A stretch of DNA of 44,050 nucleotides from an uncultured Clostridia bacterium (GTDB lineage: Bacteria; Bacillota; Clostridia; Oscillospirales; UBA644). A model generated the notes under the pieces. That model saw nothing but the letters and a program-made list of their open reading frames with translations. It ran no database searches and had not been told where the DNA came from. Position 1 is the first letter of the stretch. Every line of letters begins with the position of its first letter. The translations under genes were made by a program, and so were the position numbers. Positions 13,731 through 26,729 of this stretch are shown here, in pieces. Location: assembly GCA_944386305.1 (NCBI GenBank), contig CALXAN010000118.1:1-44050 (forward strand). Direction: 5' to 3'.

Positions 13731-13813
13731 TAATGCAGCAAAAAGACGCCGAAGTCCGGTTTTGCCGTAAGTAAAAAAATGACGCTGAACCCGAATGTAT
13801 GGGTCCAGCGTCA
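13731..13813 (+). repeat. copy A of a three-copy imperfect direct repeat of about 85 nt
   Basis: Aligns by eye with 26657-26729 and 26787-26876, sharing ...GCAAAAAGA.GCCGAAGTCCGGTTTTGCCGTAAGTAAAAAAATGACGCTGAACCCGAATG... Confidence 0.8.
13773..13813 (-). terminator. terminator of the tail/holin operon (inside repeat A)
   Basis: On the minus strand: TGACGCTGGACCC-8 nt-GGGTTCAGCGTCA followed by T7. Confidence 0.8.
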
Positions 13814-13882
13814 ATGATAGGTTATGACCGCTCAGGTATCTTCAATTCCTGAGACCGCTGCAAAACACACGTTGAGCATCCG

Positions 13883-14146
13883 TTATTCAGTTTTTTTAAG
13901 TTGTTTCGGTATTCCTCGATGCCCCATAACTGCCATTCCTGCGACCATAATGCTCTGCACCACAGCTTCAGCGCTGAAATCTGTCTCAATCCAAAGTGAA
14001 AAAACTATTCTCAAGAACAGCAGAATAAGCGGGATAAATCTATCAGGAATTACCTCGGTATCTTTTACAAAGAACCCTATGATTAACACAGGAATAAGAA
14101 TAATACGATTCTCTAAAATAAACTCCCAATATCTATTGATCGCCAC
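13883..14146 (-). CDS. phage holin-family membrane protein (Hol44-like layout)
   Basis: 87 aa with two or three hydrophobic segments (LIPVLIIGFFVK...IPLILLFLRIVF...IMVAGMAVMG) and a basic C-terminus. It is the last gene of the operon. Confidence 0.6.
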   Translation of the reverse strand: MAINRYWEFILENRIILIPVLIIGFFVKDTEVIPDRFIPLILLFLRIVFSLWIETDFSAEAVVQSIMVAGMAVMGHRGIPKQLKKTE

Positions 14147-14437
14147 TTACTTTCTTATTAAAAAGTCCTGAATTTTTGATCTGACAGATTTTAGATTTTC
14201 AACGCTGTTTCCAGTAATGGTGTTTTCAAGAATGCTGAGAATGCCCTCACACAGCAAACGGTTTGTATTTTTTACTTCTTCCATAGTCTCCGCATTAACT
14301 TTGCCGCTTTCTTCTAATGCCTTTACCCGTGCATGCAGCTTTACCGTAGGTGATAAAAATTTAAAAATAACAGCGACAGCGCTGCCAATGACGGCAATCC
14401 CCCCTGCAACGGAAAATATCAGTTCTATAATCGTCAT
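14147..14437 (-). CDS. membrane-anchored coiled-coil protein (holin-associated, XhlA/BhlA-like role guessed)
   Basis: 96 aa with an N-terminal TM segment (IIELIFSVAGGIAVIGSAVAVIF) followed by a charged helical region. It abuts the holin gene with no gap. Confidence 0.45.
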   Translation of the reverse strand: MTIIELIFSVAGGIAVIGSAVAVIFKFLSPTVKLHARVKALEESGKVNAETMEEVKNTNRLLCEGILSILENTITGNSVENLKSVRSKIQDFLIRK

Positions 14438-14681
14438 GCGCCCCCCCCTGCCTTTTAAACTCTAATAAAGTCCAAAGCATATGATGGCATTATTCTTAGA
14501 ATAACAAGTCTGCTATCGGGCCTGATATACAATCCAAGTATCCCTCATAACCGATGATGGAATAGATTGTCCAGTTTACCATTTTCCTCAGTTATTATCT
14601 TGGCTACGTCACTATCACAAAAAGTTCTTGTCCTTTATTATCAGACGTATTTATTCCCCGTGCAGATGCATCGCCTCAGAC

Positions 14682-14993
14682 TTATACGTCTGAGCCGTTT
14701 TTAACTCCAGTCGGATGTTTACCGCCGTTCACAATCAGAGTTATTTTTGCATTACCCTCAGTTCGAACGTCTCTGGTCGGGGCTGCGGATTCAGCATTTG
14801 AATAATGATATCTGCCTTGAAAATAAACAATATCACTGGCTTTATATTGCTCTTGCGTAATTTCCGAAAATCCCGGCGCCTCGGTTATTCCTTCAGCCTT
14901 ATTGAATTGAACATAATGCTCAGACTCGCTCGGAGCCTTAAATATCAGGAGTCGGTTTGCTCTTCTTCCGCTATGGTAGGGAAATCTCCCCAT
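14682..14993 (-). CDS. hypothetical protein downstream of the tail fibre
   Basis: 103-aa ORF. Its 5' end overlaps the upstream ORF by 49 nt in the -1 frame, so the start is uncertain. Confidence 0.35.
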   Translation of the reverse strand: MGRFPYHSGRRANRLLIFKAPSESEHYVQFNKAEGITEAPGFSEITQEQYKASDIVYFQGRYHYSNAESAAPTRDVRTEGNAKITLIVNGGKHPTGVKNGSDV

Positions 14994-15196
14994 ACAGCCA
15001 AAATTGACTCATAGAAGTTTTCCGGTACGATTGACTTTATAAATTTACGGCCTTCTACGCTGTTTTGGGCCGACGTGCGCCAATCCTGACCAACCTGCAG
15101 CTTTTCCCCGGCGTCTTCGATATATCTTCTTTTTAAAACATTGACATAGTCTTCTGCCAGGCCGTCTATAATCCATTCTGTATACATTTTTTTCAA
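14945..15196 (-). CDS. hypothetical small protein downstream of the tail fibre
   Basis: 83-aa ORF starting 10 nt after the fibre gene stop. Confidence 0.45.
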   Translation of the reverse strand: MKKMYTEWIIDGLAEDYVNVLKRRYIEDAGEKLQVGQDWRTSAQNSVEGRKFIKSIVPENFYESILAVWGDFPTIAEEEQTDS

Positions 15197-15205
15197 TCCT
15201 TTCTC

Positions 15206-17851
15206 TTAAAGACTTGTTCTGTACGTACCCCAAATATAAACTGACGAGCCTGCGGCAGTCCAGTCCTGGAAACCGGAATAAATCTGACCGTTGGAGTCAG
15301 AATAAATAATTTGCCCGTTATTCCGCACATAAGGTCCAATTTTTACGGTATTTTCCGCAGATGCCGCAGTAACTCCGCAGAACATGATATTTAAGCAATC
15401 AAATGCGCTGTAAAAAGCAAAAGGGAAGCCTTTTACGACAGCGGCGGACATTTTTGACAATAATTTAACGGTTCCGTATATGTGGCACAATTTATCTATT
15501 TTGATATAATATCCGACTCCGCCTGCATCATCTATTGAAGGGGTCCAAGTGCCACTTGTTAATTTACCACTTATATCATTGAGGCTGTTATAACTATTAT
15601 ATATACCGATTTGGGGTGCAACAGCTGCCGAATCATCTAAACCGGACGCAATAGTATCGCTTAAAAGGCTCGATGAAGCGGATGCAGAGGTCGGTATTAT
15701 TCTCCACGAGCTATATTTAACGTTGTTGCTGGAAATAACTGAGTCTTTTGAAACGTCTGTATCTGTATACCAGTATCGGGAACGCAAGCCAGAGGCAGTA
15801 CTTGACGACCCTGCATTATAAAACTGCAAATGCGTCATATATGTATTTGCAGTAATATCTTGAGCCGCATGCAGCTGACCCTCAGCGTCAATATACGCGC
15901 CCTGATACCAGTTTATATTAGGATTGGCAGCGTCCGTTGAAACTGAAAAGTTCAGAGATCCGTCCGCCTCGTCATGTGAGTCTCCTCCATATATTGAGGT
16001 AGTTCCCTTAAAAATGATATCTGCAAAATTCCCGGCAACCGCGTTGATTCCGATACCCTTTTCCCTAATCGTAAGAAGCGCGGACCACTGCGTGACCATG
16101 GCAGAGTCGGTCACTTCTTGTGAGCCGAGGATAACTTCCATTATAGAATCGGTATATGACAGATGGATATTACCGGATGAGATTTCTTGCAGTCCGGTAA
16201 ATTGTTTTGTCTCCTCGTACGTATTTATATATGGAGGCGCTGAGGTTGTGCTGCTGCCGGATACCAATCCGGAATATGTCAACGTCACGGCGCCTATCGG
16301 GTTAGAAATAGAGGTAGAAGGACGCACTGAAGACTTAACTATTACGCTGTTTTGCTGGCGTTCGGTAACAGAAGTGCTTAACGCCGGGGCATTATAATAA
16401 TGCAGCGTAATCTGCGGCCCCACAGAATCGTCGGAAGTAGTACCGTACGCCGTTTTTGCAACCACCTTGATTTGATATGTCTGAGATTTTGATATAGAGG
16501 TAATCGGAGTCGTATATGATCTCGACGTGGTCGTCGAAACCAAAGACCAGGAACTGCTCCCCATCTTAGAATACACTAAGTAAGACACGGTAGTTGCGTT
16601 CGGGTCGGTCACCGCGCCCCATGTCCAGGTAATTGCGCGTTTATTAATGATAAAAACGGGTTCGGACACGTTAGGCAAAGTGTAGTAGGACGAAGAAGAA
16701 TACGACGGAGCCGACGGAGCGGCCGGAGTATATTGCCAGTTAATATCCGTATTTGCTTGAACGGTCCCGGAAGAGCCATAGGCGTTCGAGCAAGTCATCT
16801 GCAGCCGCAATGTCCCGGTATAAGTAGACGCTGCATGGGAAGCGCAAGCCGCCTTAATATCGGATTGTTTGATGTATATTCCTGTAGGAGTTGTGCCGCT
16901 GCCGTCCCAAACTGTGATATAAAAGCGATATGACGCGACTCTGTCACTGGTTACGCCGTAAATCGACAACGGATACGCCGTCCCGTTTAGATTTACAAAC
17001 TGCGCCGTCAAACCATAGGTAAAGCTTTTGTTGCCGTCCGTATTGACGGGCACGCTGTGAGTACACGTCACAGTATACGTGCTGCCGGGCGTGATCGTCG
17101 ACGGAGAGGTAATTTTAAAAGATGAAGGAGGAGTGAATTTATTTTTGGTAACAGTCTCAGATTGTTTGCCGAAGATATAATCGTCCGAAGCTGAATCCTT
17201 ACAGTACGTTCTGAAATAATAGCTCGTCCTTTGCTCGTCATCGGCAACATTTACCGTGCCGGAAGTACTCGTAGTTCCGCCGCCTCCTACGTATGAACCT
17301 GTAAACGAGCCGTTCTTCCATATTTCTACGTTATACTGTATCTGATCGCCCTGGTTGTCTTTCGCTCCGGACCAGCTGACATTGAGCGAGCCTGTGTTTT
17401 CGGCAAAGACGCCGGACGGACTCACCGTACACGTCGGATTTACCCAATAAGCGTTCGTGTTGCCCAAAGGGATTGAAAGCGTAAAATTATTGTATTGAAA
17501 AGTCCCTGCAGCATATGCCTTATTTGAAAAGCCGACAGACAGCGCCACGGACGTGCTTGCAGCTGCCGCCGAGAGCGTTACGCTTTTCCAGTACCCGGAA
17601 CGGACGTTGCCCTGCGAAGAAGCGTACCAGTAGTATTTGCCCGTAATATGATTGGGGTTACAGCTGCGATTCTCCCCGTCCACCTGTACCCAGCATCCGT
17701 TAGACGACCATGAACCGGGATAATGCACGCCGATATCGATATCAATCGTAACGGACGACGGCGTCCGTCCAGTCACATTGTAATACACCTTCAGCTCTGC
17801 CGACACGTTGGACTGCGTTGTGCCGTAGTTGATATATCCTGTTTCAGCCAT
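15206..17851 (-). CDS. tail fibre / receptor-binding protein with several Ig/FN3-like modules
   Basis: 881 aa, Ser/Thr/Gly/Tyr-rich, with FN3-like stretches (ITWTWGAVTDPNATTVSYLVY...YQIKVVAKTAYG). It sits after the Tal gene. Confidence 0.65.
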   Translation of the reverse strand: MAETGYINYGTTQSNVSAELKVYYNVTGRTPSSVTIDIDIGVHYPGSWSSNGCWVQVDGENRSCNPNHITGKYYWYASSQGNVRSGYWKSVTLSAAAASTSVALSVGFSNKAYAAGTFQYNNFTLSIPLGNTNAYWVNPTCTVSPSGVFAENTGSLNVSWSGAKDNQGDQIQYNVEIWKNGSFTGSYVGGGGTTSTSGTVNVADDEQRTSYYFRTYCKDSASDDYIFGKQSETVTKNKFTPPSSFKITSPSTITPGSTYTVTCTHSVPVNTDGNKSFTYGLTAQFVNLNGTAYPLSIYGVTSDRVASYRFYITVWDGSGTTPTGIYIKQSDIKAACASHAASTYTGTLRLQMTCSNAYGSSGTVQANTDINWQYTPAAPSAPSYSSSSYYTLPNVSEPVFIINKRAITWTWGAVTDPNATTVSYLVYSKMGSSSWSLVSTTTSRSYTTPITSISKSQTYQIKVVAKTAYGTTSDDSVGPQITLHYYNAPALSTSVTERQQNSVIVKSSVRPSTSISNPIGAVTLTYSGLVSGSSTTSAPPYINTYEETKQFTGLQEISSGNIHLSYTDSIMEVILGSQEVTDSAMVTQWSALLTIREKGIGINAVAGNFADIIFKGTTSIYGGDSHDEADGSLNFSVSTDAANPNINWYQGAYIDAEGQLHAAQDITANTYMTHLQFYNAGSSSTASGLRSRYWYTDTDVSKDSVISSNNVKYSSWRIIPTSASASSSLLSDTIASGLDDSAAVAPQIGIYNSYNSLNDISGKLTSGTWTPSIDDAGGVGYYIKIDKLCHIYGTVKLLSKMSAAVVKGFPFAFYSAFDCLNIMFCGVTAASAENTVKIGPYVRNNGQIIYSDSNGQIYSGFQDWTAAGSSVYIWGTYRTSL

Positions 17852-17852
17852 G

Positions 17853-20312
17853 TCAATTGGCCCCCCTTGCTACATAATCGTCCCATTGCTCTAAAGTGTA
17901 TCCCTGCGCGTCATAGATATAAAAGTCGTCAAATGCGTAATTTCCAACTTGGAATACAGTAATCGACCAATTGTCCGCCAAAGCTGGAACAATCGCAGAT
18001 AAATATGTCCATTCTAAGGTTTCTATCTCAGCATCAATATAAGTATTTGTAATAAATCCTACATTTGCACTAGAACAAACCCGTATTGAATTAGTTATAT
18101 TAGATGGAATCTTTATCCAAAATCCGATATAAAAATTTTTAGAATACAACCCCATTTGGGTTATGGTATCGGAAGACAAAGACATAGTACCAAGCAATGT
18201 AGCTGAGGACTTTAGTGCGTACGAACCGGAATGCACATACTCAGCTTCATCCGTAACCGTCCATGTCCCGTTTACTCTAGTCCACGGGCTCATCGTGTTT
18301 TCCTCAAATCCCGGATTCGGCATTAGATTGATTTGCCCGTCAGGTATCGGGACAAGCGGTATGGCTTTTGGAGTTACCAGGAAATCGACGCCGGTATTGC
18401 CCTGAACGGTATTGGTCCTGCGCATGATAATGTTGTCAAACAGCAGAGCGTCATCGTAATACAGGCCGGGCGAAACATGAACCGGATCGTCGCTTTTTAT
18501 CTCAAACGGGTGAAACGACTCAATTTCGGATCCATCGGTCGCATGCACGAGGGTATGACCAATAGAGGTGTGCTTTTTGCCATCGTATGTCGCCCAAACC
18601 AGCTTTAGATCGGCGGCAATTTTATTCTCACTCGACGCCATTTCGTCGGCATCCGCCGAAATAAGCAGATAAGCCAGCGGGGGATGACCTTCGGTCTCTG
18701 CGGAAGTGATATTTTTATTCCAGTACTTAAACAATGCGCCGATACCGTCCAGCACGGTTTGGCCCCAGCCTTCCGCGGCCTGTATGATCTGCTGCCCGGA
18801 CTCCAAGTCTATCTGCAGCGTATCGTCTAATGCGGACAATACTCCTGTGCGGATCCAGTCCGCCGTGATCATGCGCGCGATAATGGATTTGTCCTTGCTG
18901 AAGCCGCTGTACGTCCCAAAGTATCCGGTATCGGATACGCCTATGCCGCCTGTTGAGTATGCCCACACGTAGCAGTCCTCGCGGGGGTCAACGTTGGAGT
19001 CGTCCGGAAGAATGATATTATCGTCGGCAAAGATAGGTTCGCTTGCCATATAATAGCCTACAAGCCGGCCCTGCTGGTCATATTTTATTCCGGCATACAG
19101 CGCCAGCGACTCGGTAAGCAGATTGGACTGGTTCAGCATTGCCTGCTGCGTCATATTCAAGCCTTCGTTTAAGTCCTTGGCGGCCTGAATCTGCACTTCC
19201 TGTATTTTTTTGGCTTCGGCAGTCAGCTGGCGGTCCTGTTCCTGAGTCTTACCCAGCGCAGAAAGCTTCCCCAAGCCTCGAAACCGGTATTCGTGAGACA
19301 TGATCAGCGATTCTATCGTATCATTCACCTGCTGCTCGTCTATGACCACATTATGTACCACCGTGTCTCCCGCCTGTACGGTAGGGTCGCCGATGAACTG
19401 GCAGTCATACGTCTTGTACCTGACGGAAGTCATCAAGGAAGACATTTCAGCCAAAACGGAAACGGCGGTTTCCTCACTCTGTATCAGCGGATTGGTATCA
19501 AGGGTAATTAAATACGACGTATCTGCATCCTCCTGAACATACTCTACCCCGTTCCAATCCTTGACTACCACGGCTGTGGGGTGAACGTCCAAATCATTGA
19601 GCGTAATGCTGATACGGGTATCCGGCGTCGTAACATATTGGGTATCGGCGTACCAAAAGGCCTCCAGCTGATTGGTGCGGGACATGCGCAGATTTTTGCC
19701 TATGATGCAGCCGAGATAAGCCAAAAAATCTCTGCATGTATATTTCGATGCGTCAAATTCGTTGAGCGTCAGCTCGGGTATCTGATCATATAAATCAGAC
19801 GAATAGCTCACACCAGCCAAAATACACGCTTTTTGAAACAGCAGCCGCAAAGGCATAGGAAAGATCGGGTCGGTATCTGACAGCGGACGATTGAACTTAC
19901 ACATGAGATCTATACATTTGATGGGGATAGTGGTATACTTCTTGCCTGCGCTCTGAACTATGAACGTGCCCAGCTTGATGTCGGCCCAGGTATCGATTTG
20001 CGGCACATACATTTTAACGGTAGGAGACACCTCGGCGTTTAAGAAGTTATACTGACGATACAGTCCGTCGGGATTCATCAGGCTGAAATCAAGGGAATTG
20101 GCAAACGTGGAACCCGCCATAATGCCGTCTGTGCAGGTTGACTGCTCCTTGAATACGAGAGAATTTGCAACTATATCATTTTCGTATAAATCCAAATGCG
20201 TTCCATCGTCCAAATCCATTGCGATTTCCAGCGCCCAGGTTCTGTCGGGCTGCGCGGCCGCTTCCTTAAATGCCAGCCACTGCTCGTCCGTAAAATTGGG
20301 TGGACGGTACAT
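17853..20312 (-). CDS. tail-associated baseplate protein (Tal / prophage-tail-endopeptidase type) with a CBM4/9-like C-terminal domain
   Basis: 819 aa, positioned after the Dit-like gene. The C-terminus has NLMPNPGFEENTMSPW, typical of a carbohydrate-binding jelly-roll. Confidence 0.6.
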   Translation of the reverse strand: MYRPPNFTDEQWLAFKEAAAQPDRTWALEIAMDLDDGTHLDLYENDIVANSLVFKEQSTCTDGIMAGSTFANSLDFSLMNPDGLYRQYNFLNAEVSPTVKMYVPQIDTWADIKLGTFIVQSAGKKYTTIPIKCIDLMCKFNRPLSDTDPIFPMPLRLLFQKACILAGVSYSSDLYDQIPELTLNEFDASKYTCRDFLAYLGCIIGKNLRMSRTNQLEAFWYADTQYVTTPDTRISITLNDLDVHPTAVVVKDWNGVEYVQEDADTSYLITLDTNPLIQSEETAVSVLAEMSSLMTSVRYKTYDCQFIGDPTVQAGDTVVHNVVIDEQQVNDTIESLIMSHEYRFRGLGKLSALGKTQEQDRQLTAEAKKIQEVQIQAAKDLNEGLNMTQQAMLNQSNLLTESLALYAGIKYDQQGRLVGYYMASEPIFADDNIILPDDSNVDPREDCYVWAYSTGGIGVSDTGYFGTYSGFSKDKSIIARMITADWIRTGVLSALDDTLQIDLESGQQIIQAAEGWGQTVLDGIGALFKYWNKNITSAETEGHPPLAYLLISADADEMASSENKIAADLKLVWATYDGKKHTSIGHTLVHATDGSEIESFHPFEIKSDDPVHVSPGLYYDDALLFDNIIMRRTNTVQGNTGVDFLVTPKAIPLVPIPDGQINLMPNPGFEENTMSPWTRVNGTWTVTDEAEYVHSGSYALKSSATLLGTMSLSSDTITQMGLYSKNFYIGFWIKIPSNITNSIRVCSSANVGFITNTYIDAEIETLEWTYLSAIVPALADNWSITVFQVGNYAFDDFYIYDAQGYTLEQWDDYVARGAN

Positions 20313-20326: not shown

Positions 20327-20698
20327 TTAATACTCAACTAAGCTGAAGCTGATTTCCCACCAGTTTACAGCGGTTTGATCAGTTTCCGAGCTTTCGTGAA
20401 CCAATAAATTACAGGACCTGTCCTCGACATACATGTCGGCTATCCTGCGCATGCCGCTCCTCGGGTCAAGATATCCTACCTCTACCATGCCCGGCTCTAT
20501 CGCGGCCAGTATGGTAGCGGCGTCGGCGTCGCTGACCCTCCAGCCGAGCTCAAGCGTGACGATGCCCTGGCGAATACGGTTGCGTATTTTTACTCCGCTT
20601 TCCGAATACGCGGAATCAGAGGATTCCATATCCGCCATAGGCGCGCTGTAGGTTACGGGATCGGGCATTGCCGTTCCGTCGATTGTTAGCAAAGCCAT
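20327..20698 (-). CDS. small tail component in the distal-tail-protein position
   Basis: 123 aa, lying between the TMP and Tal genes. The assignment rests on gene order only. Confidence 0.4.
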   Translation of the reverse strand: MALLTIDGTAMPDPVTYSAPMADMESSDSAYSESGVKIRNRIRQGIVTLELGWRVSDADAATILAAIEPGMVEVGYLDPRSGMRRIADMYVEDRSCNLLVHESSETDQTAVNWWEISFSLVEY

Positions 20699-20776: not shown

Positions 20777-22036
20777 TCAGGCGTAAACGCCGTTGGTCTG
20801 CAGCATACGGCGCTGCCTGCTGCTGACGATATATTCGTCGAGCTGCTCATTGCCGATGAAGACCTGGATGACAGACTCGCTGCCGCTCTTCATCGCGGAT
20901 TTGACCGCTCTGTATACGCCGGAGGACACCGACTCGACAATTTGGTTATTATTCATTACCGCGTTGCGCCCGCCGATCGTTCCTACCAGCTCCGGCCCCG
21001 CCTCACGGGCGATGAACATCTGCCCCATGGACGGGAAGCCGCCGGCGGCAAACGATGGAATAGTAGGAATCGCAAGCTCCAGTTCAGGAATATTAACGCC
21101 CGGGATCAAATTCAAGCCTTTGATAATCAGATTAATCGGAGTTAAAACGATTTTCATGAGGAAATTTATGCCCTCGATCAGTAAGTTTACAAAGTCAATA
21201 AAGGCGTTTGCTATAAATTTAAAGAAACTTGACATGAAATTTCTAAAACCCTCGCATCTATTCCACAGAACTACAAAGGCAGCGACCAATGCTGTAATTG
21301 CAATAACAACAAGAGCGATTGGATTCATACTCAACACCGCATTCAATGCGCCTTGTGCAACGGTAATAAGAGCCGTAATCGCTTTTTGAGCGCCTTTCGC
21401 CACGGTATCCGCAGCAGTTGCAGCGGTTTCTTTGATCCAAATCACAATACTTGAATTCATAATAGCATTGAAAGCGGTTTTTACAGCATTATAGGCAGTC
21501 AGCGCAGCATGCTGCGCCCAGGTCGCTACAGTATGAGCAACCGTTAAAGAGGTTTCCTTTATCCAGTTGCCAATACTTTTTAACGTTTCTAAATTAAAAA
21601 GTTTTTTTGCGGCCGTAAGCATATTGAGCAATAATGTATATTCACCTGTTATGGTTATCAAATTTGCAAAAATGCCAGTAAAATTATTTAAAAAACCGGT
21701 TCCGTTCATTATAGTGTTAAAAAAGCCACCGAATCCTTCTTGAGTAGCTGCAATAGATTGATTCAAAATGAGCAGCTGGCCATTGATTCCCCCCAAGGTA
21801 TCTGTTAGGCCTAAGGATTCGCCAATGCCGGCGAGAGAGAGAAACTGCTCGGAAAAAGTTGTTATGCAGGCGTTAGCTGTCCCGAATAGAATTTCGAAAT
21901 TTGTCTGCGCTATCGCAGTTGTTTGGCTGAAGGATTCCGTTATTTGATCCATACTGCTTTGAACGACGATAGCCATTTGACCGACCGCTTCGTTTATAAG
22001 AGTAACAGGAGAAATAATGGCGTTTGCATCTGTCAT
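20777..22036 (-). CDS. tape measure protein (short, 419 aa)
   Basis: A long helical, Ala/Thr/Asn-rich N-terminal part, a hydrophobic segment (PIALVVIAITALVAAFVVLW), and a C-terminal AREAGPELVGTIGG...NNNQI motif typical of TMPs. The Shine-Dalgarno is AAGGAGG. Confidence 0.75.
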   Translation of the reverse strand: MTDANAIISPVTLINEAVGQMAIVVQSSMDQITESFSQTTAIAQTNFEILFGTANACITTFSEQFLSLAGIGESLGLTDTLGGINGQLLILNQSIAATQEGFGGFFNTIMNGTGFLNNFTGIFANLITITGEYTLLLNMLTAAKKLFNLETLKSIGNWIKETSLTVAHTVATWAQHAALTAYNAVKTAFNAIMNSSIVIWIKETAATAADTVAKGAQKAITALITVAQGALNAVLSMNPIALVVIAITALVAAFVVLWNRCEGFRNFMSSFFKFIANAFIDFVNLLIEGINFLMKIVLTPINLIIKGLNLIPGVNIPELELAIPTIPSFAAGGFPSMGQMFIAREAGPELVGTIGGRNAVMNNNQIVESVSSGVYRAVKSAMKSGSESVIQVFIGNEQLDEYIVSSRQRRMLQTNGVYA

Positions 22037-22086
22037 AAATATGCCTCCTTAAATTTTAATAAATATAGAAAGTGAGAAAGAATGAA

Positions 22087-22422
22087 ATGAGTACTCATGT
22101 AACCATTAAAGTGCCTGTAAATGCAAAGAGTTGTTTACAAATGGCTTATGATGTTTTGCTGTCACCGGAGAATTTACTGGCAGAAAAAATTTCAAAGAAA
22201 AGTTCTCCATACATGGATGAATTACTTCTCCATGCGTTTGTTGCTCATTCCAATAGATTTGAATATTTAGTTACGGTAAAAGAAGTGAGCCAAAATGAGT
22301 CTGAAATGACTGTAATATGCGCATTTCAAAATATCACACAACTAAATACAATTGGACCCGAATGCGAACTTATATCCCTTTTTTTGAGAATCTTAAGCCA
22401 AAAAATTCAAAATACAACTTGA
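22087..22422 (+). CDS. hypothetical protein encoded antisense to the tail operon (moron)
   Basis: ORF 22072..22422. The in-frame ATG at 22087 is preferred. I recognise no motif. Confidence 0.4.
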   Translation: MSTHVTIKVPVNAKSCLQMAYDVLLSPENLLAEKISKKSSPYMDELLLHAFVAHSNRFEYLVTVKEVSQNESEMTVICAFQNITQLNTIGPECELISLFLRILSQKIQNTT

Positions 22423-22602
22423 TCGAGTTTTCGCAAATTTCTCCACACGCTCCTTCATCACCCATCAGTCCTGCTGCCACTTTTTTGTTTATACAAGGCA
22501 GGGAATGTCTTTTCATCAACTCGCTGATCATCGTTTTGACATCAATTGCTGATGTTTGCATAGATTTAATTCCCCTTTCGGTTTTTGATAGGAGTTGAGA
22601 AA

Positions 22603-23054
22603 ATGAAAAAATGGAAGAAACTGAAGGAAATGAATCGCTGGGTTCTTATTTCAATCATTGTATATGTATTGATATTAATTTTGCTGATTATCGCTGCGTT
22701 TTTATCTTCAGACCCCAAACACAGCTTATGGTCTTTTGCTGCCGTGGTATGGGCAATTCTTGGATTTCTGCTGCCTAGTTACACACATCATTATACACTG
22801 CGTTCCTCTTTGCCTACTTTAAAAAGGCGTGCAGTAGTTTGTAAAAAAAATTTGTATCCGAAGAGACTTGGTTTGATGGGTATAAAATATACCAAATTCC
22901 TATCCTGATTTTCCAATTTGAAAATGGGAATCAATTAGCTTTCCGGGTTTCTCATAAACGGTATAAAGCTTTTCAATGCGGTGAAACTGGAACATTAGTC
23001 TATAAGGAAGGAAAGGATACCGCTTTCTTTATCGATTTCATTGTGCATGATTAA
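22603..23054 (+). pseudogene. DUF2500-like membrane protein interrupted by a frameshift in an A8 tract
   Basis: ATG 22603 follows AGGAG. After ...RRAVVCKK the frame changes at A8 (22843-22850). The shifted frame reads FVSEETWFDGYKIYQIPILIFQFENGNQLAFRVSHKRYKAFQCGETGTLVYKEGKDTAFFIDFIVHD-stop, which is a DUF2500-type C-terminus. Confidence 0.55.
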
Positions 23055-23297: not shown

Positions 23298-23959
23298 CTA
23301 GTCAAATTGCTGAGTATCCCTTTTCCTTTTCGCAAACTTCTCTACCCGCTCCTTAATCACCCACCAGTCCTGCTGCTCCTTTTTCTCGAACAGCGTCGGA
23401 AAAGCCTCTTCAAGCGAGGGAAACTTCCTGGGATCGTTTATCGCTACGCCCGAAAGGGCGGCGCAATTATATCCGATCCACGCCAACATTTGGTAGAAGT
23501 CTCTCTGCTTTTCGCTTTCCACATCGACCGCCAGCTTGATTTCATCAGGCGTGACGCTTTCCAGCATGTCGAGCGGTATACCGCACCACAGGGAAGAACG
23601 GATCAGCTGATTGGAAAAGTCTGATTTTGGGTCAGGACTTACTGCGCCTGACCTTTCCTGAAAAAACCGGAGGTTTCAAACAGGCTGTTGATTTCCTGCA
23701 TCAGTTCCTCCACCGAATGCCCATCGTCCACATAAGCGTCGAACAGCGCCATTGCTTTTTCCTGTGTAAACCCCGCGTTCAGCGGCTGCATGGCGCCCCA
23801 CAGGATCGTGGTAATGGTTTCCACCATATTGTCCTGGATGGTCTCCAGAGCCTTAAACAGCGGTTTACCCAGCTTCTTCTCAATCTGCATTATGGCGCCG
23901 GCGGTCAGGCGCAGCTTGTATTCCTCTCCGTTTACGGTCATGGTATAAAACTTGTTCAT
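23298..23959 (-). CDS. tail assembly chaperone frameshift product (gpGT-like, -1 shift at 23660-23666)
   Basis: The -1 frame is open from the slippery site through the 23298..23567 ORF; I checked this codon by codon. Confidence 0.6.
23639..23959 (-). CDS. tail assembly chaperone (gpG-like)
   Basis: 106 aa, lying directly after the major tail protein gene. It ends just past a T_TTT_TTC slippery heptamer. Confidence 0.7.
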   Translation of the reverse strand: MNKFYTMTVNGEEYKLRLTAGAIMQIEKKLGKPLFKALETIQDNMVETITTILWGAMQPLNAGFTQEKAMALFDAYVDDGHSVEELMQEINSLFETSGFFRKGQAQ

Positions 23960-24054: not shown

Positions 24055-24471
24055 TTATGCGGGATTGGTTACGGTGATATCGCTCTGCAGCAGCATGGTC
24101 GCGCTGAAGGTCAGAGCGCCGTTGACGGTACCGGCGTCCATTTTTACGGCGGGAACGGCGTCAAACTGATGCCCCGTACCGTCCGGATATTCGATCTTAA
24201 AGGTTGCGGCCGTGTTGGCGTCAGCCAATCCTTTCAGGACGCGGTAATTGGAGGTTTCAGACGAATTGTCATAAAGGAATTTGAACACAAGGTCTCCCAA
24301 ATCCTTGATTCCGGGGACATATTTCTTTACGGAATCGGACAGGACCGTAACGTCGATTTTCTCAGGCGTGCCGCCGAATTCGGGAACCTCCATAAGATAA
24401 TCGAGCTGGGTAAATTCGGCCTCGCCGGACTTGTAGGATATTTTGGTGTTATTGGCAGAATATCTATTCAT
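24055..24471 (-). CDS. major tail protein (TP901-1/phi13-like, non-contractile)
   Basis: 138 aa. Its size, its position and the pattern LMEVPEFGGTPEKIDVTVLSD...YVPGIKDLGDLVF are typical of siphovirus major tail proteins. Confidence 0.7.
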   Translation of the reverse strand: MNRYSANNTKISYKSGEAEFTQLDYLMEVPEFGGTPEKIDVTVLSDSVKKYVPGIKDLGDLVFKFLYDNSSETSNYRVLKGLADANTAATFKIEYPDGTGHQFDAVPAVKMDAGTVNGALTFSATMLLQSDITVTNPA

Positions 24472-24485
24472 GATGATTACTCCTT

Positions 24486-24701
24486 TTATTCATTAATTTT
24501 TTCGATAAATTCTATAGGAACACTGTGCAGCGTGTTGTTATCCAGCAGAACGATTCCCACAGGGAACAGCCCGCCGGAATTATCATCGGCGCTCTGAGTC
24601 GAAATTTCAATCAGCGTGCCGGAATATTCCGTACCGCTGAATGATTTCGTCGCAGGATCCCAATACCTGTCCAGCAGGCAGGATACTCTGATTTCCGTCA
24701 T
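24486..24701 (-). CDS. hypothetical small protein upstream of the major tail protein
   Basis: 71-aa ORF whose start overlaps the preceding stop by 4 nt. Confidence 0.45.
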   Translation of the reverse strand: MTEIRVSCLLDRYWDPATKSFSGTEYSGTLIEISTQSADDNSGGLFPVGIVLLDNNTLHSVPIEFIEKINE

Positions 24702-24997
24702 ACGCTTCCTCCTCCCTTATGAGATTTGTTTGCCGAATTACCTGAAGCAGAAGCGGTCTGCTGTTCTGACTGTGAGCTTATCGGCTCCGACCGTAACGGG
24801 TCTTTCGTTTCAGCGTCCAGCTCTCGCTTCAGCGAGCACATTTCCTGGTAGAGAGTCAGGTGTACTGCGGCCATACAGCGTTTCAGGCTATTTTCATATT
24901 CCTTGGTCAGGCGTTCGCGTTCCCGGTTAAGCCGGGCTGCGACAATTTTATTAACTTCATCCTGCGTAAAGCATCTATCCGCCATATGTAACTCCAT
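24698..24997 (-). CDS. hypothetical protein with a phage scaffold-like FTQDEVNKIVAARLNRERE motif
   Basis: 99 aa and the first gene of the tail operon. The motif resembles the DUF4355/scaffold N-termini I remember. An alternative start is at MADRCF. Confidence 0.45.
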   Translation of the reverse strand: MELHMADRCFTQDEVNKIVAARLNRERERLTKEYENSLKRCMAAVHLTLYQEMCSLKRELDAETKDPLRSEPISSQSEQQTASASGNSANKSHKGGGSV

Positions 24998-25123
24998 TTA
25001 ACGTCTGTAGACGATGATTCCATGCAGCTTTTAGCGCCGTCCGCACGTTCTAGGCAGGATCAAGGGCACAATCGTATCACCTTGGCCGAAGACGAATTTT
25101 TCCTTTTATGCCCTTTCACCTAA

Positions 25124-25152
25124 TAGATAGGAAATTACAGCGATAATGTAAA
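25124..25152 (-). promoter_or_regulatory. candidate promoter of the tail operon (TTTACA -35)
   Basis: On the minus strand: TTTACA (25152-25147), a 17-nt spacer, then TATCTA (25129-25124), about 120 nt upstream of ATG 24997. Confidence 0.25.
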
Positions 25153-25265
25153 CCGCAAAAATATTTTTAATTTCCTTTTTAGCCAAATAACATATGCTAG
25201 TAAACACAGCTGAAAGTAGAATATTCTCCCTCCCGCCACAATACTGTGAATTATATTTTTGTATA

Positions 25266-25311
25266 AGCATCGGCCCCCATTTACTTGAAAACGCAAATGG
25301 GAGCCGATGCT
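25266..25311 (-). terminator. long hairpin immediately after the sigma gene
   Basis: 17-bp stem with one mismatch (AGCATCGGC.CCCATTT / AAATGGG.GCCGATGCT). No clear T-run follows, so it may attenuate rather than terminate. Confidence 0.45.
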
Positions 25312-25315
25312 TTAA

Positions 25316-25852
25316 TTATTCATTTTTCAAGAAATCTCTCAAAATGATAAGACCTCTTGTTTTTAAGCGGTTCACCGCTTGCCTGGATATATGAAGGAAT
25401 TTTGATATTTCAACGTCGCTGTAATCATAAACATATTTGTAGATGATAACTTGCCTTTGCCTTTTTGTCAAACGTGAAAAACCTTCAAATAGCGCCATGT
25501 TAGATTCAAAATCATTAGAAACGTCATTGTCAGAGGCTATTTCTTCACAGAAGCCCACAAAAAGCGCTTCGTGCATTTGCTTCGCTTTTGAATACGATAT
25601 GTATTTATTTCTTATTGAAACAGCTATATACTTTTTTAAATCGACGGAGTCGTCCGCGCAGAACTTGTCCAACGAAATATTATTAATTAATTCAATTAAA
25701 AATACATTCAACTCCTGAAGCAAATCTTCATCCTTTAACAAACGCGCATAATGATATAACAATTTCTCAAAGACGATATATATACTGTCAAATTGCTCAC
25801 GATTTCCGCTCTGAAATCCCTTTATTAACGGTATAAGCTCCATATTATTCAT
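25316..25852 (-). CDS. alternative sigma factor, TcdR/UviA/BotR-like (group 5 sigma-70)
   Basis: 178 aa. The layout is colinear with TcdR as I recall it (FLIELINNISLDKF..., KYIAVSIRNKY). The region 4.2 HTH reads LTKRQRQVIIYKYVYDYSDVEISKFLHISRQAVNRLKTRG. Confidence 0.7.
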   Translation of the reverse strand: MNNMELIPLIKGFQSGNREQFDSIYIVFEKLLYHYARLLKDEDLLQELNVFLIELINNISLDKFCADDSVDLKKYIAVSIRNKYISYSKAKQMHEALFVGFCEEIASDNDVSNDFESNMALFEGFSRLTKRQRQVIIYKYVYDYSDVEISKFLHISRQAVNRLKTRGLIILRDFLKNE

Positions 25853-26332
25853 ACCCTGTCCCCTTCTTTCTACTTAATAGAAAGAAATAATTTAATAATA
25901 TGTAAATACGGATAAAAAAGAAATTTTAAGTGGAAAAATTGTGTGTAGTGTAACATGCCTTGAATTAAGATCCTCGAAAATATTTTTTGAATTGCGTTAT
26001 AGATATTAACATGAATAAGCCCTCCTTATTTAATTTGTATAATAATACCGTCTTGAGACACACGTATCGGAACTTTTTTTTGTTCCGTTAAATAAGAAAA
26101 AGCTAATTCAATCTATAAAATTCACCCGACTTTCCATGACAATAAACATCTTTATTTTACCATATTTTTCCATTTTATTACATTACTTGATCTACTTTTG
26201 CAGGCGAGCTGCTGCACCCTATTTCAACCGTTAAATTATTAAATTTATCGTACCCACATCCAATTCGTGATGCAACAATAAAAGTACCGTGTATCAGGAC
26301 AATGAACCGACATAAGATAAACGATTTGAAAT

Positions 26333-26640
26333 AAAAAAAAAGTCGCTGCAAGCGATATGCAGCCCGCGGCGACGTAAGAAGCAAAAAGATACCTGCTATA
26401 GACGCGAACGCAAAACCGTAATAAAGAAAAAGCCCCGAAACGCGATTTGCGCGTAAGGCTCTCGACTGGCCCGCCTGCAGGGATGCCGGAACGACCGTCC
26501 CGGGACGCGCAGACTCCCCGCAAGGTGGGGCCCTGCCGCACGCTTCTTCGTTAAAAACGTATCACCGGCACGTTTTCTTAACACTCAGACCCTATTGTAG
26601 TTCGAATCCCTCCTAGATAAAAACGCAGCACACATAAAGG
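26333..26640 (-). ncRNA. candidate structured RNA of unknown class
   Basis: A GC-rich island packed with hairpins inside AT-rich non-coding DNA. On the minus strand it ends in GCTGCA-7 nt-TGCAGC followed by GAC and T9. No credible ORF is present. Confidence 0.3.
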
Positions 26641-26656
26641 TGAGTGTTGCATTTTT

Positions 26657-26729
26657 GTAATGACGTAGCAAAAAAGATGACGAAGTCCAGTTTTGCCGTA
26701 AGTAAAAAAATAACGCTGAACCCAAATGA
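26657..26729 (+). repeat. copy B1 of the three-copy direct repeat (lacks the distal hairpin arm)
   Basis: Aligns with copies A and B2 up to ...AACGCTGAACCCAAATGA. Confidence 0.8.

What the first reader, a model, noticed from the sequence alone, without database searches (positions are those of the whole stretch)
13731..26729. Head-less siphovirus-type tail cluster under its own sigma factor: candidate F-type tailocin-like system
Read on the minus strand from 25852 down to 13883, this is one co-oriented gene train:
- a TcdR/UviA-like sigma factor;
- two small ORFs;
- a 138-aa TP901-1/phi13-type major tail protein;
- a G/GT chaperone pair with an intact -1 slippery site;
- a 419-aa tape measure protein (roughly a 60-nm tail if the usual ~0.15 nm per residue holds);
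- a 123-aa protein in the Dit position;
- an 819-aa Tal-type protein with a CBM-like C-terminus;
- an 881-aa FN3-rich fibre;
- two small ORFs;
- two membrane (holin-type) proteins;
- a strong terminator.

What is absent matters as much. In about 13 kb I find no terminase, portal, protease, capsid, head-tail connector, integrase, repressor, replication gene or endolysin.

The long uninterrupted ORFs and the preserved frameshift signal argue against random prophage decay.

Non-contractile tail-only loci are already known: F-type pyocins and Listeria monocins. Control by a group-5 sigma factor together with holin-only release would be new. It would tie a tailocin to the regulatory and export logic of clostridial toxin loci and the BCN5 bacteriocin locus.
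Basis: partly seen in the sequence, partly recalled or inferred. Interest (0 to 1): 0.85.

Follow-up and report, generated by a model that had tools for sequence, protein, structure and literature searches.

The report
Head-less phage-tail locus with own sigma
This is one copy of a conserved gene cluster in gut Clostridia that keeps only the tail of a phage, under a toxin-type (UviA/TcdR-like) sigma factor. It is most likely a phage-tail bacteriocin, although this copy has lost its cell-wall lysin.

Summary
On the minus strand, 25852 to 13883, lie a sigma factor, two small genes, a tail tube gene, a chaperone pair with a -1 frameshift, a 419-aa tape measure, a Dit-position protein, an 819-aa Tal with a CBM-like end, an 881-aa fibre and a holin. 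There are no head or packaging genes.

Comparison adds three supports:
- The head-less layout recurs in 15 divergent lineages (Oscillospiraceae, Ruminococcaceae, Acutalibacteraceae and Lachnospiraceae MAGs). Several are flanked by ordinary host genes and none has head genes.
- dN/dS is 0.02-0.24 with saturated synonymous sites.
- The slippery site U_UUU_UUC and the open -1 frame are kept in all ten loci checked.

The sigma factor carries the SRQ motif of the TcdR/UviA family. A TTTACA-N13-TTYCTWTCT promoter occurs exactly twice in the window, before the sigma gene and before the tail operon. The same arrangement is seen in eight related lineages.

- "Holin-only release" is an accident of this copy. 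Most relatives whose lysis region is visible carry a lysin, and here only fragments of the M23 lysin remain.
- The chaperone-to-tape-measure gap holds opposite-strand cargo genes and a relic tape-measure start.
- A separate prophage begins 1.7 kb away.

No particle or killing has been shown. I rate it a new variant of a known kind, the F-type tailocin.

The parts
25875..25906 (-). Promoter-like motif TTTACA-N13-TTTCTTTCTATTA upstream of the sigma gene; inferred autoregulatory promoter
   Evidence: One of only 2 matches in the window, with 0 expected by chance. The same motif lies upstream of sigma in L001, L009, L012, L014, L016, L018, L036, L038, L040 and L044.
25316..25852 (-). UviA/TcdR-like sigma-70 family factor, 178 aa, with HISRQAVNRLK in region 4.2
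   Evidence: Pfam Sigma70_r4 and TIGR02937. SRQ is present in 85 of 104 homologues. tblastn gives about 30% identity to uviA-type genes on clostridial plasmids. dN/dS 0.085 against L001.
25121..25152 (-). Second copy of the TTTACA-N13-TTCCTATCTATTA motif; inferred sigma-dependent promoter of the tail operon
   Evidence: A motif is conserved between sigma and the first operon gene in L001, L009, L016, L018, L036, L038, L040 and L044.
24983..25055 (-). Conserved leader of about 75 nt directly upstream of the first operon gene (GCCYAGAACGTGCGGA..AAAAGCTGCATGGAA..CGTCTACAGACGTTAAATGGAG)
   Evidence: Nearly invariant in 10 loci, whatever regulator lies upstream. RNAalifold pairs GCCCA with the Shine-Dalgarno UGGAG. 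Only one compensatory pair was seen, so the structure is not proven.
24698..24985 (-). g99: 95-aa conserved protein (real start probably the second ATG, MADR...); its N-terminus resembles phage scaffold proteins
   Evidence: Weak DUF4355 (E 0.006) and phrog_2303 (E 8e-4) hits. Present in almost all head-less loci at 56-79% identity. Absent from complete phage relatives. dN/dS 0.23.
24486..24701 (-). g71: 71-aa conserved protein specific to the head-less loci; predicted SH3/Tudor-like beta-barrel; function unknown
   Evidence: Alignment A5. No Pfam or PHROG hit. No relation to tail terminators. AF2 pLDDT 87.6. Foldseek was uninformative. 46 representative clusters found in 1.84 billion proteins.
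24055..24471 (-). Major tail (tube) protein, 138 aa
   Evidence: Phage_tail_3 and phrog_158. 79-87% identical across most head-less loci, 70% in L022 and L023.
23298..23959 (-). Tail assembly chaperone G (23639-23959) and G-T fusion made by a -1 frameshift at T_TTT_TTC (23666-23660), reading into the T ORF (23298-23567)
   Evidence: DUF6096, phrog_183 and phrog_2066. Slippery site and open -1 frame are conserved in 10 loci. dN/dS 0.018.
22585..22908 (+). Opposite-strand cargo gene: 107-aa membrane protein, a truncated relative of DUF2500-like proteins
   Evidence: 39% identity to the L001 opposite-strand 157-aa protein. An intact 150-aa version occurs in the near-identical strain L028. DUF2500-type genes occupy the same position in L009, L019 and L040.
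22370..22561 (-). Relic of an earlier tape-measure start (MQTSAIDV...), in the same frame as the 419-aa ORF but followed by stop codons
   Evidence: Matches the start of the 498-aa tape measure of L001.
22072..22422 (+). Opposite-strand cargo ORF, 116 aa, function unknown
   Evidence: 94% nt identity to the 111-aa gene in L028. No family hit.
20777..22036 (-). Tape measure protein, 419 aa, with its own AAGGAGG ribosome-binding site
   Evidence: Many tape-measure PHROG hits. The C-terminal 100-160 aa are homologous to the TMPs of L001, L007 and L003. Complete phage relatives have TMPs of 852-1186 aa.
20327..20698 (-). Dit-position protein, 123 aa (DUF6711)
   Evidence: Same position in complete phage relatives. 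dN/dS 0.057.
17853..20312 (-). Tal / baseplate hub protein, 819 aa, with a CBM-like C-terminal domain
   Evidence: phrog_6616, E 8e-46. The AF2 model matches the monocin tip 9j1k_L, the MuSo2 hub and the R2 pyocin hub, and CBM16/22/61 at the C-terminus. dN/dS 0.07.
15206..17851 (-). Fibre / receptor-binding candidate, 881 aa
   Evidence: Position and homology to the post-Tal protein of relatives and of complete phages. Only weak Ig/FN3-like hits. dN/dS 0.08.
14522..14993 (-). Remnant of an M23-peptidase lysin (pseudogene): the 103-aa ORF 14682-14993 plus a downstream fragment
   Evidence: Only residues 163-225 and 264-284 of the 315-aa L007 lysin are recognisable. The catalytic domain (1-160) is absent.
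14147..14437 (-). 96-aa protein with an N-terminal membrane segment and a coiled coil; lysis accessory candidate
   Evidence: 55% identical to the 98-aa protein that precedes the holin in L007. No family hit.
13883..14146 (-). Holin, 87 aa
   Evidence: Phage_holin_5_2, E 3e-11; phrog_1129, E 1e-15.
13726..13813 (-). Terminator hairpin (13813-13780) inside copy A of an approximately 75-nt repeat. Copies B (26656-26733) and C (26784-26877) lie upstream of the sigma gene.
   Evidence: Contigs from other samples break at copy B.
11373..13061 (+). Three opposite-strand cargo genes downstream of the holin: 165 aa, a 180-aa lipoprotein and 135 aa
   Evidence: Paralogues of the lipoprotein sit between T and the TMP in L024 and L028. 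No family or defence hit.

Best explanation
The region is one copy of an old, domesticated, head-less siphovirus tail locus that is widespread in Oscillospirales-type gut Clostridia. It most likely builds a short non-contractile phage-tail particle, an F-type tailocin-like weapon.

Proposed mechanism:
1. A locus-encoded UviA/TcdR-family sigma factor is made from its own transcription unit. It has a TTTACA-type promoter, which implies positive feedback, and a hairpin follows its stop codon.
2. The sigma factor directs RNA polymerase to a second TTTACA-N13-TTCCTATCT promoter.
3. That promoter drives one operon with a conserved leader. The operon encodes g99, g71, the tube protein, chaperones G and G-T (by a -1 frameshift), a 419-aa tape measure (about 15 tube rings, about 60 nm), a Dit-position protein, a Tal hub with a carbohydrate-binding end, an 881-aa fibre, and then lysis genes.
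4. Small membrane proteins and lipoproteins encoded on the opposite strand are candidate self-protection factors.

In this copy the M23 lysin is a pseudogene and one cargo gene is truncated. Release would therefore need another lysin, for example that of the neighbouring prophage, or this copy is partly disabled.

Shown: gene identities, conserved head-less synteny, purifying selection, the conserved frameshift, and the paired promoter motifs.
Inferred: sigma dependence, particle formation, killing, and immunity.
For: - Tail roles are confirmed by profiles and by structure.
- The head-less layout g99-g71-tube-G/GT-TMP-Dit-Tal-fibre occurs in 15 lineages, and none has head or packaging genes. 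Host genes flank the cluster in several: an ABC transporter in L001; aldose epimerase and a HAD hydrolase on the two sides in L019; biotin genes in L020; the fructose PTS in L021.
- Complete phage relatives (Tal 37-39% or tube protein 56-64% identical) carry terminase, portal, scaffold, capsid and four connector genes in place of g99 and g71.
- Against L001, dN/dS is 0.018-0.24 with dS above 0.5 to above 2.5.
- The slippery site and the -1 frame are kept in 10 loci.
- The promoter motif occurs exactly twice in the window with 0 expected. It occurs in the same two positions in eight related lineages, and there are only 2 hits in 220 kb of control phage DNA.
- The SRQ motif and the TTTACA -35 element are the published marks of TcdR-family sigma factors (PMC4031146).
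- uviA-type genes are the closest annotated homologues. One example is pSM101A, arranged as amidase | sigma - UviB - bacteriocin.
- The F-pyocin cluster also lacks a terminator gene, and its cap is dispensable for killing (10.64898/2026.02.24.707460).
Against: - No expression, particle or killing data exist.
- This copy has a truncated lysin, a relic tape-measure start and a truncated cargo gene.
- One relative, L008, has a destroyed tape measure, so members of the family do decay.
- No tail terminator was found.
- The functions of g99 and g71 are unknown.
- The BotR equivalog profile is far below its cut-off (36.9 against 138 bits).
- Six of the 15 lineages have no adjacent sigma gene and use other promoters.
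- The island's GC content (0.35-0.50) differs from the host flank (0.55-0.60), which suggests recent acquisition in this genome.
Confidence: 0.55

Rival explanations
1. It is an inert prophage remnant. Deletion left a tail-and-lysis fragment that is slowly decaying, and its conservation reflects recent spread or recombination with active phages rather than selection for a function of its own.
For: - The lysin is a pseudogene, a relic tape-measure start remains, and one cargo gene is truncated.
- The L008 tape measure is destroyed.
- Tape measures are shorter (419-580 aa) than in phage relatives (852-1186 aa).
- g99 looks like the N-terminal stub of a scaffold gene.
- att-like repeats and a prophage lie next door.
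- dS is uneven between genes, which suggests a mosaic history.
Against: - The same deletion junction (g99-g71-tube) is shared by 15 lineages whose sigma and Tal proteins are only 44-72% identical.
- Synonymous sites are saturated while dN/dS is 0.02-0.24.
- The programmed frameshift and its -1 peptide are conserved everywhere checked.
- The promoters and the leader are conserved.
- g71 occurs only as a stand-alone gene of about 70 aa and is absent from complete phage relatives.
Confidence: 0.15
2. It is a functional tail module whose product is not a bacteriocin. It could supply tails to a capsid-forming element or prophage in the same cell, or act as an adhesion or other delivery device.
For: - In the window it lies 1.7 kb from a prophage whose structural module runs off the contig.
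- Repeats A, B and C suggest shared integration sites.
- The CBM-like Tal end and the large fibre show only that the particle binds carbohydrate.
Against: - No terminator, completion or connector genes are present that would allow joining to a head.
- L001, L019, L020 and L021 have no visible prophage or capsid genes within the flanks recovered (3-10 kb).
- The neighbouring prophage has an HK97-type portal and protease, whereas phage relatives of this tail use an SPP1-type portal and a scaffold.
Confidence: 0.15
3. The selected unit is the sigma-lysis cassette, a programmed-lysis or release module like uviAB or tcdR-tcdE. The tail genes are a dispensable passenger.
For: - Sigma homologues (44-47% identical) sit directly before an M23/CW_7 lysin and a holin, with no tail genes. 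In L014 and L015 that cassette lies in core chromosomal neighbourhoods next to GerA, CotF and DpaA genes; in L012 it lies among core genes such as spoIVA and prfC.
- The same promoter motif precedes those sigma genes.
- L047 has a sigma gene with a lipoprotein and lysin/holin genes.
Against: - The tail genes are the best conserved genes of the locus: tube protein 79-87% and chaperone 73-96% identity in most loci.
- In this copy it is the lysin, not the tail, that has decayed.
- Six lineages keep the tail cluster without an adjacent sigma gene.
Confidence: 0.1

Closest known systems
[quoted passage not shown]
   Same: - A Gram-positive, chromosomal, head-less siphovirus-type tail cluster.
- The gene order is regulators, then tube, two chaperones, tape measure, Dit, hub and fibres, then a lysis cassette (PMC11830787).
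- The Tal model here matches the monocin tip hub 9j1k_L (E 6e-10).
   Different: - There is no sequence-level homology.
- Monocin encodes a terminator cap (FtbF), and its TMP of 622 aa gives 22 tube rings. Here no terminator was found and the TMP is 419 aa.
- Monocin is reported to be controlled through phage-type repressor and anti-repressor regulators (abstract of PMC9043618), not by a sigma factor.
- Here there are opposite-strand cargo genes inside the structural operon.
- The lysin is degraded in this copy.
F-type pyocin of Pseudomonas aeruginosa (PA0633-PA0648)
   Same: - A head-less, non-contractile tail cluster.
- No terminator gene lies inside the cluster, and the cap is dispensable for killing (10.64898/2026.02.24.707460).
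   Different: - It is lambda-like, Gram-negative, and shows no homology to this cluster.
- The published abstract ties its assembly to the DNA-damage-activated alp lysis operon. By my own recollection it is regulated by PrtN/PrtR.
- Lysis genes are shared with the R-pyocin, also by my own recollection.
uviAB-bcn locus of Clostridium perfringens plasmids (BCN5) and the TcdR/BotR/TetR toxin regulators
   Same: - The sigma factor has the SRQ motif and TTTACA -35 promoters.
- It is the closest annotated homologue (about 30% identity, nearly full length).
- On pSM101A the layout is amidase on the opposite strand | sigma - holin-like UviB - bacteriocin. L040 and L044 show amidase | sigma - tail operon.
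   Different: - The payload is a multi-gene phage tail rather than a single toxin or bacteriocin.
- Identity is low, and the BotR equivalog model is far below its cut-off.
- The -10 element (TTYCTWTCT) differs from the GTTATA of botulinum promoters.
Complete temperate siphophages of gut Clostridia (L003, L004, L006, L025, L026)
   Same: Homologous tube protein, chaperones with frameshift, C-terminus of the TMP, DUF6711 protein, Tal, fibre and Hol44-type holin, all in the same order.
   Different: - They carry terminase, portal, scaffold, capsid, four connector or terminator genes, a TMP of 852-1186 aa and an intact endolysin.
- They lack the sigma factor, g99 and g71.
Efagins of Enterococcus faecalis
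   Same: A recently described chromosomal, phage-related antibacterial particle of a Gram-positive gut bacterium that recognises cell-wall carbohydrate (PMC12713668).
   Different: It is restricted to one species. No homology was tested here. No sigma factor is mentioned in the abstract; the body of the paper was not read.

Membership tests
[quoted passage not shown] | A complete non-contractile tail gene set (tube, G/GT chaperones, tape measure, Dit, hub/Tal, fibre) with no sheath | tested here: met
   No sheath or contractile baseplate genes appear among the ORFs.
[quoted passage not shown] | No capsid, packaging or replication genes in the element, and this state is conserved in relatives rather than private to one decayed copy | tested here: met
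   None of the 15 lineages has head genes. Host genes flank the cluster in L001, L019, L020 and L021. Complete phage relatives differ exactly at this point.
[quoted passage not shown] | Maintained by selection | tested here: met
   dN/dS is 0.018-0.24 with saturated dS. The frameshift is conserved.
[quoted passage not shown] | A lysis cassette (holin plus lysin) for release | tested here: inconclusive
   The holin is present. The lysin is reduced to fragments in this copy. Relatives have M23, GH25 or amidase lysins. L019 shows none.
[quoted passage not shown] | A tube terminator (cap) protein | tested here: not met
   No terminator family hit was found, and g71 is unrelated to terminators. This is not strictly defining: the F-pyocin cap is encoded elsewhere and is dispensable for killing.
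[quoted passage not shown] | Particles are produced and kill related bacteria | not testable with these tools
   This needs induction, EM and killing assays.
TcdR/UviA/BotR/TetR ('group 5') sigma factors | SRQ motif in region 4.2 | tested here: met
   HISRQAVNRLK is in the window protein. SRQ is present in 85 of 104 homologues. The criterion comes from PMC4031146.
TcdR/UviA/BotR/TetR ('group 5') sigma factors | Cognate promoters with a TTTACA -35 element, including one upstream of the regulated adjacent genes | tested here: met
   There are two motif copies in the window against 0 expected. They are conserved in the same positions in relatives. Promoter activity itself was not tested.
TcdR/UviA/BotR/TetR ('group 5') sigma factors | Sequence similarity to characterised members | tested here: inconclusive
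   The BotR equivalog TIGR03209 covers the full length but scores 36.9 bits against a cut-off of 138. tblastn gives about 30% identity to uviA-type genes next to BhlA/UviB on clostridial plasmids; 62 of 75 records are Clostridium. No phylogeny was made.
Intact temperate siphophage (prophage) | Terminase, portal, capsid, connectors, integrase and repressor belonging to the same element | tested here: not met
   None lies within 13726-26733. The neighbouring integrase, repressor, TerL and portal belong to a divergently organised prophage of a different head type.

The most novel reading that the evidence does not exclude
A whole family of head-less siphovirus tails in Oscillospirales gut commensals works as tailocins. 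They have been wired into the clostridial bacteriocin and toxin expression module: a UviA/TcdR-type autoregulated sigma factor plus a holin/lysin cassette. Self-immunity genes are carried on the opposite strand inside the operon. On this reading the TcdR-family regulatory and release logic is a general clostridial 'payload launcher', and its payload can be a toxin, a bacteriocin or an entire phage tail.
Probability: 0.35. Interest if true: 0.8.

Novelty: new variant of a known kind. Interest (0 to 1): 0.66.

Why it matters
- Few non-contractile tailocins of Gram-positive bacteria have been characterised; those found in the literature searched here are monocins and the recently described efagins. 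I found none described for the strictly anaerobic Oscillospiraceae and Ruminococcaceae that dominate the human gut.
- A conserved family there would be a new source of strain-specific antibacterial particles, and a new factor in strain competition in the gut.
- The link to a UviA/TcdR-type sigma factor is also new. The shared promoter grammar is TTTACA at -35, with a motif before both the regulator and the payload. This gives a concrete, testable bridge between phage-derived weapons and the regulatory and release modules of clostridial toxin and bacteriocin loci.
- The opposite-strand membrane and lipoprotein genes inside the operon are testable candidates for tailocin immunity. Immunity is poorly understood for F-type particles.

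Tried and rejected
- Megablast of the 13-kb region against 50,697 phage records found no match.
- The exact-product look-up of Tal by window reference failed but worked through P0001.
- Scans of genome contigs and viral contigs with the Tal alignment found nothing; the search patterns were too narrow. The tube-protein and g71 alignments did work.
- I first read L009 as having lost its tape measure. That was a gene-caller artefact: an intact 580-aa TMP lies on the plus strand.
- g71 as a shrunken tail terminator is rejected: hhalign probability 0.2%, no PHROG hit, and only generic SH3/Tudor-like fold matches.
- g99 as a true scaffold is unresolved. It gives only weak N-terminal motif hits and no blast relation to the scaffolds of phage relatives.
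- The cargo genes have no credible match to known defence systems in PADLOC; the only hit was one weak match (PDLC03819, E 0.0027, 15.5 bits) for the 107-aa protein.
- Rfam found no family in the window.
- Sequence search of the PDB with Tal and the fibre gave no hits.
- I rejected the idea that the tail cluster belongs to the right-hand prophage. The cluster lies beyond that prophage's integrase end. The head types differ. The cluster occurs without such a prophage elsewhere.
- I looked for this sigma family in complete phages. Only three unverified faecal fragments matched. The one examined (L047) is a sigma, lipoprotein and lysin/holin locus, not a phage.
- The host species could not be named.

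Full report
**1. What is in the window**

On the minus strand, from 25852 down to 13883, lies a co-oriented gene train. Profile searches confirm most of the roles:
- Sigma-70 family factor (25316-25852): Sigma70_r4 and the TIGR02937 superfamily.
- Two small genes (24698-24997 and 24486-24701), here called g99 and g71.
- Tail tube protein (24055-24471): Phage_tail_3; phrog_158, E 1.5e-25.
- Tail assembly chaperone (23639-23959): DUF6096 and phrog_183.
- Its T extension (23298-23567): phrog_2066.
- Tape measure, 419 aa (20777-22036).
- DUF6711 protein in the Dit position (20327-20698).
- Tal protein, 819 aa (17853-20312): phrog_6616, E 8e-46.
- An 881-aa protein in the fibre position (15206-17851).
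- Four small ORFs, the last of which is a Hol44-type holin (13883-14146).
- A strong terminator at 13813-13780.

An AlphaFold model of Tal has a well-predicted N-terminal 350 residues. It matches the monocin tip hub 9j1k_L (E 6e-10), the MuSo2 gp44-like hub and the R2 pyocin hub. Its C-terminal part matches CBM16/22/61 modules. "FN3-rich" for the fibre rests only on faint hits.

The slippery heptamer T_TTT_TTC lies at 23666-23660, and the -1 frame is open for 120 codons into the T ORF. No head, packaging, replication or integration gene lies between 13726 and 26733.

**2.

(a) The 1.26-kb, low-GC gap between T and the tape measure is not empty. It carries two opposite-strand ORFs: a 107-aa membrane protein at 22585-22908 and a 116-aa protein at 22072-22422. 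Between them is a relic of an older tape-measure start (MQTSAIDV..., 22370-22561). The relic is in the same frame as the present 419-aa ORF but is followed by stop codons. The present ORF has its own AAGGAGG ribosome-binding site.

(b) One of the "small ORFs" after the fibre is a lysin remnant. In the relatives L001 and L007, the fibre is followed by an acidic protein of about 50 aa and a 315-aa Peptidase_M23 protein. In the window only residues 163-225 and 264-284 of that protein are recognisable, and the catalytic domain is gone. A 98% identical copy from another sample (L002) shares this state.

(c) Immediately to the right lies a separate prophage:
- integrase 27604-28689;
- LexA-like repressor 28764-29402;
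- plus-strand early genes;
- TerL 40122-41801;
- Phage_portal-type portal 41813-43054;
- S78 protease 42969-43670.

Its layout puts its left end next to the integrase, so the tail train lies outside it. Its head type also differs from that of the phages related to the tail train, which have an SPP1-type portal and a scaffold.

(d) The region is bracketed by copies of an approximately 75-nt repeat that contains the terminator hairpin: A at 13726-13813, B at 26656-26733 and C at 26784-26877. Contigs from other samples break at copy B.

**3. Comparative evidence**

Homologues of Tal, of the sigma factor, of the tube protein and of g71 led to loci from metagenomes and from GTDB MAGs. The MAGs are labelled Acutalibacteraceae, Oscillospiraceae, Ruminococcaceae, Clostridia and Lachnospiraceae.

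The region upstream of the tube gene can be seen in fifteen lineages: the window, L001, L009/10, L016, L017, L018, L019, L020, L021, L022, L024, L036, L038, L040 and L044. In all of them the cluster begins with g99 and/or g71, directly followed by the tube gene. None has head or packaging genes.

Ordinary host genes flank the cluster in several loci:
- L001: an ABC transporter.
- L019: aldose epimerase on one side and a HAD hydrolase on the other.
- L020: biotin genes and an epimerase.
- L021: the fructose PTS and PtsI.

More distant relatives are complete siphophages (Tal 37-39% identical: L003, L004, L006; tube protein 56-64% identical: L025, L026). They have terminase, portal, scaffold, capsid and four connector or terminator genes where the head-less loci have g99 and g71. 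Their tape measures are 852-1186 aa, and they carry a holin plus an endolysin.

The head-less junction is thus a shared, derived state. A profile of g71 finds only 46 representative clusters among 1.84 billion proteins, almost all stand-alone proteins of about 70 aa.

**4. Selection**

| Gene (window vs L001) | dN/dS |
|---|---|
| sigma | 0.085 |
| g99 | 0.23 |
| g71 | 0.24 |
| chaperone | 0.018 |
| Dit-position protein | 0.057 |
| Tal | 0.070 |
| fibre | 0.082 |

- Synonymous sites are saturated, or nearly so, in most genes.
- The tube protein and the chaperone are the best conserved proteins of the locus. They are 79-87% and 73-96% identical across most loci.
- The slippery site GGTTTTTTC and an open, conserved -1 reading frame are present in all ten loci examined.

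This is the pattern of a working tail-assembly system, not of drift.

Decay does occur in individual copies:
- L008 has only frameshifted scraps of its tape measure.
- The window has lost its lysin and has a truncated DUF2500-like cargo gene. The near-identical strain L028 keeps that gene intact at 150 aa.

**5. Regulation**

The motif TTTACA-N13-TTYCTWTCTATTA occurs exactly twice in the 44-kb window, with none expected from shuffles. One copy lies 22 nt before the sigma start codon (25906-25875). The other (25152-25121) lies about 135 nt before the probable start (24985) of the first operon gene.

The same arrangement is found in L001, L009, L016, L018, L036, L038, L040 and L044. The motif also precedes sigma homologues that sit in front of bare lysis cassettes (L012, L014). 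By contrast, 220 kb of control phage sequence gave two hits.

A hairpin follows the sigma stop codon, so sigma and the tail operon look like separate transcription units.

According to PMC4031146, TcdR-related sigma factors recognise a TTTACA -35 element and carry a distinctive SRQ motif in region 4.2.
- The window protein has HISRQAVNRLK, and 85 of 104 homologues have SRQ.
- tblastn against plasmids finds 75 records, 62 of them Clostridium.
- These include the classical C. perfringens layout of amidase | sigma - BhlA/UviB - SH3-domain protein in the position of the BCN5 bacteriocin (pSM101A), at 30% identity over 96% of the length. A C. tetani sigma-UviB pair also appears.
- The BotR equivalog model aligns end to end but scores far below its cut-off.

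I therefore call the protein UviA/TcdR-like on motif and promoter grounds, without a phylogeny.

Sigma control is not universal in the family:
- L019 has a consensus sigma-A promoter flanked by palindromes.
- L017 and L024 share another promoter. L024 also has an XRE regulator, an ImmA-type peptidase and a 120-aa protein upstream.

What all loci share is a nearly invariant 75-nt leader just before g99. Its 5' GCCCA can pair with the Shine-Dalgarno sequence. Covariation support is minimal.

**6. Lysis and cargo**

Most relatives whose lysis region is visible have a lysin, but its type and position vary:
- M23 after the fibre (L001, L007);
- GH25 after the holin or fibre (L020, L024);
- an amidase with a holin, divergent from the sigma gene (L040, L044), which mirrors the pSM101A arrangement.

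"Holin-only release" is therefore not a design feature. In the window it results from pseudogenisation.

Most loci carry one to five opposite-strand genes between T and the tape measure. These are DUF2500-like membrane proteins and lipoproteins. In the window, related cargo also lies downstream of the holin (11373-13061), and paralogues swap between the two positions in near-identical strains.

These genes have no credible match in defence databases; the only PADLOC hit was one weak match (E 0.0027) for the 107-aa protein. They sit beside the tape-measure gene and would be expressed independently of the late operon. That makes them reasonable candidates for self-protection, but this is inference only.

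**7. Interpretation**

The best-supported reading is a domesticated, head-less siphovirus tail locus that works like an F-type tailocin.
- In this and eight other lineages it is placed under a UviA/TcdR-type sigma factor with positive feedback.
- With a 419-aa tape measure, the tube would have about 15 rings (about 60 nm). This scales from monocin, where 622 aa give 22 rings.
- The absence of a terminator gene is not disqualifying. The F-pyocin cap is encoded elsewhere and is dispensable for killing.

I give this reading 0.55, because no expression, particle or killing data exist and this copy is damaged. The rivals are:
- an inert remnant (0.15);
- a tail module with a non-killing role, such as supplying tails to another element (0.15);
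- a sigma-lysis module with passenger tail genes (0.10).

**8. Novelty**

Full-text searches found no paper that links tailocins with TcdR or UviA, and none that describes tailocins in Oscillospiraceae or Ruminococcaceae. The Gram-positive F-type systems found in those searches are monocins and efagins.

I rate the finding a new variant of a known kind: the F-type tailocin concept, with a new lineage, new hosts, a new regulatory front end and embedded cargo genes. Interest is 0.66. The conservation and the promoter logic are solid and directly testable. Function remains inferred, and this particular copy is partly degraded.

Noticed in passing
window 13726-13813, 26656-26733, 26784-26877: Three copies of an approximately 75-nt repeat that contains a terminator hairpin. 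They are 86-91% alike, and copy B lacks half of the hairpin. They bracket the tail cluster and lie just left of the neighbouring prophage's integrase. Contigs from other samples break at copy B, and L031 has 396 extra nt between C and B. They could be old att sites from tandem integration, or a dispersed repeat.
   Followed up: partly
window 24983-25055 (minus strand); same position in L001, L009, L016-L021, L024: A 75-nt leader before the first operon gene is nearly invariant across loci whose proteins are only 44-80% identical, whatever regulator lies upstream. RNAalifold pairs its 5' GCCCA with the Shine-Dalgarno sequence. It has no Rfam match and only one compensatory pair.
   Followed up: partly
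window 27604-44050: A separate prophage runs off the right end of the contig. It has an integrase, a LexA-like S24 repressor, a Cas4-like nuclease (31400-32314), a C5 DNA methylase (35919-37172), TerL, a Phage_portal-type portal and an S78 prohead protease. Whether it has its own tail and lysin cannot be seen.
   Followed up: partly
L012 10001-11635; L014 10001-11540; L015 2193-3731: Sigma homologues (44-47% identical) with the same TTTACA promoter stand directly before an M23/CW_7 lysin and an r1t-type holin, with no tail genes. In L014 and L015 that cassette lies between core and sporulation-related genes (GerA, CotF, DpaA, cmk, ispH). L012 lies among other core genes (spoIVA, feoAB, prfC, PFOR), and it has a second inverted lysin-holin pair and a serine recombinase. 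This is a possible programmed-lysis cassette.
   Followed up: no
window 11373-13061 and 22072-22908; L028 3685-5129; L024 11348-11905: Families of small opposite-strand genes (DUF2500-like membrane proteins, lipoproteins with an SSPxNPVPLGEY motif, and bPH/SHOCT-like proteins) occupy two alternative positions: between T and the TMP, or after the holin. They differ between strains that are 98-99% identical elsewhere.
   Followed up: partly
window 13177-13335: A 42-nt tandem repeat of 3.8 copies (79% matches) lies in the intergenic region between the cargo genes and the terminator. Its function is unknown.
   Followed up: no
L022 5500-15914: A Lachnospiraceae MAG locus carries two successive chaperone-T-tape-measure sets, with three opposite-strand cargo genes between them. 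This suggests tandem duplication or fusion of two clusters.
   Followed up: no
L009 5806-7548: The stored gene calls put a 322-aa gene on the wrong strand across an intact 580-aa tape measure. Low-complexity TMP genes can mislead gene callers and mimic gene loss.
   Followed up: yes
window 1-10900 versus 11000-44050: GC content is 0.55-0.60 in the left flank (thiamine kinases, HAD hydrolase, two P-type metal ATPases, CsoR-like and ArsR-like regulators). It is 0.35-0.50 from about 11 kb onward. The tail cluster and the prophage therefore sit in a compositionally foreign island.
   Followed up: no
L017 about 2400-2500; L024 about 9300-9400; L019 about 9250-9400: Loci without an adjacent sigma gene use other front ends. 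L017 and L024 share the element AAGTTTGCGTCCCAGAGCCATT, and L024 also has an XRE regulator, an ImmA/IrrE peptidase and a 120-aa protein. L019 has a TTGACA-N17-TAAAAT promoter flanked by palindromes.
   Followed up: no
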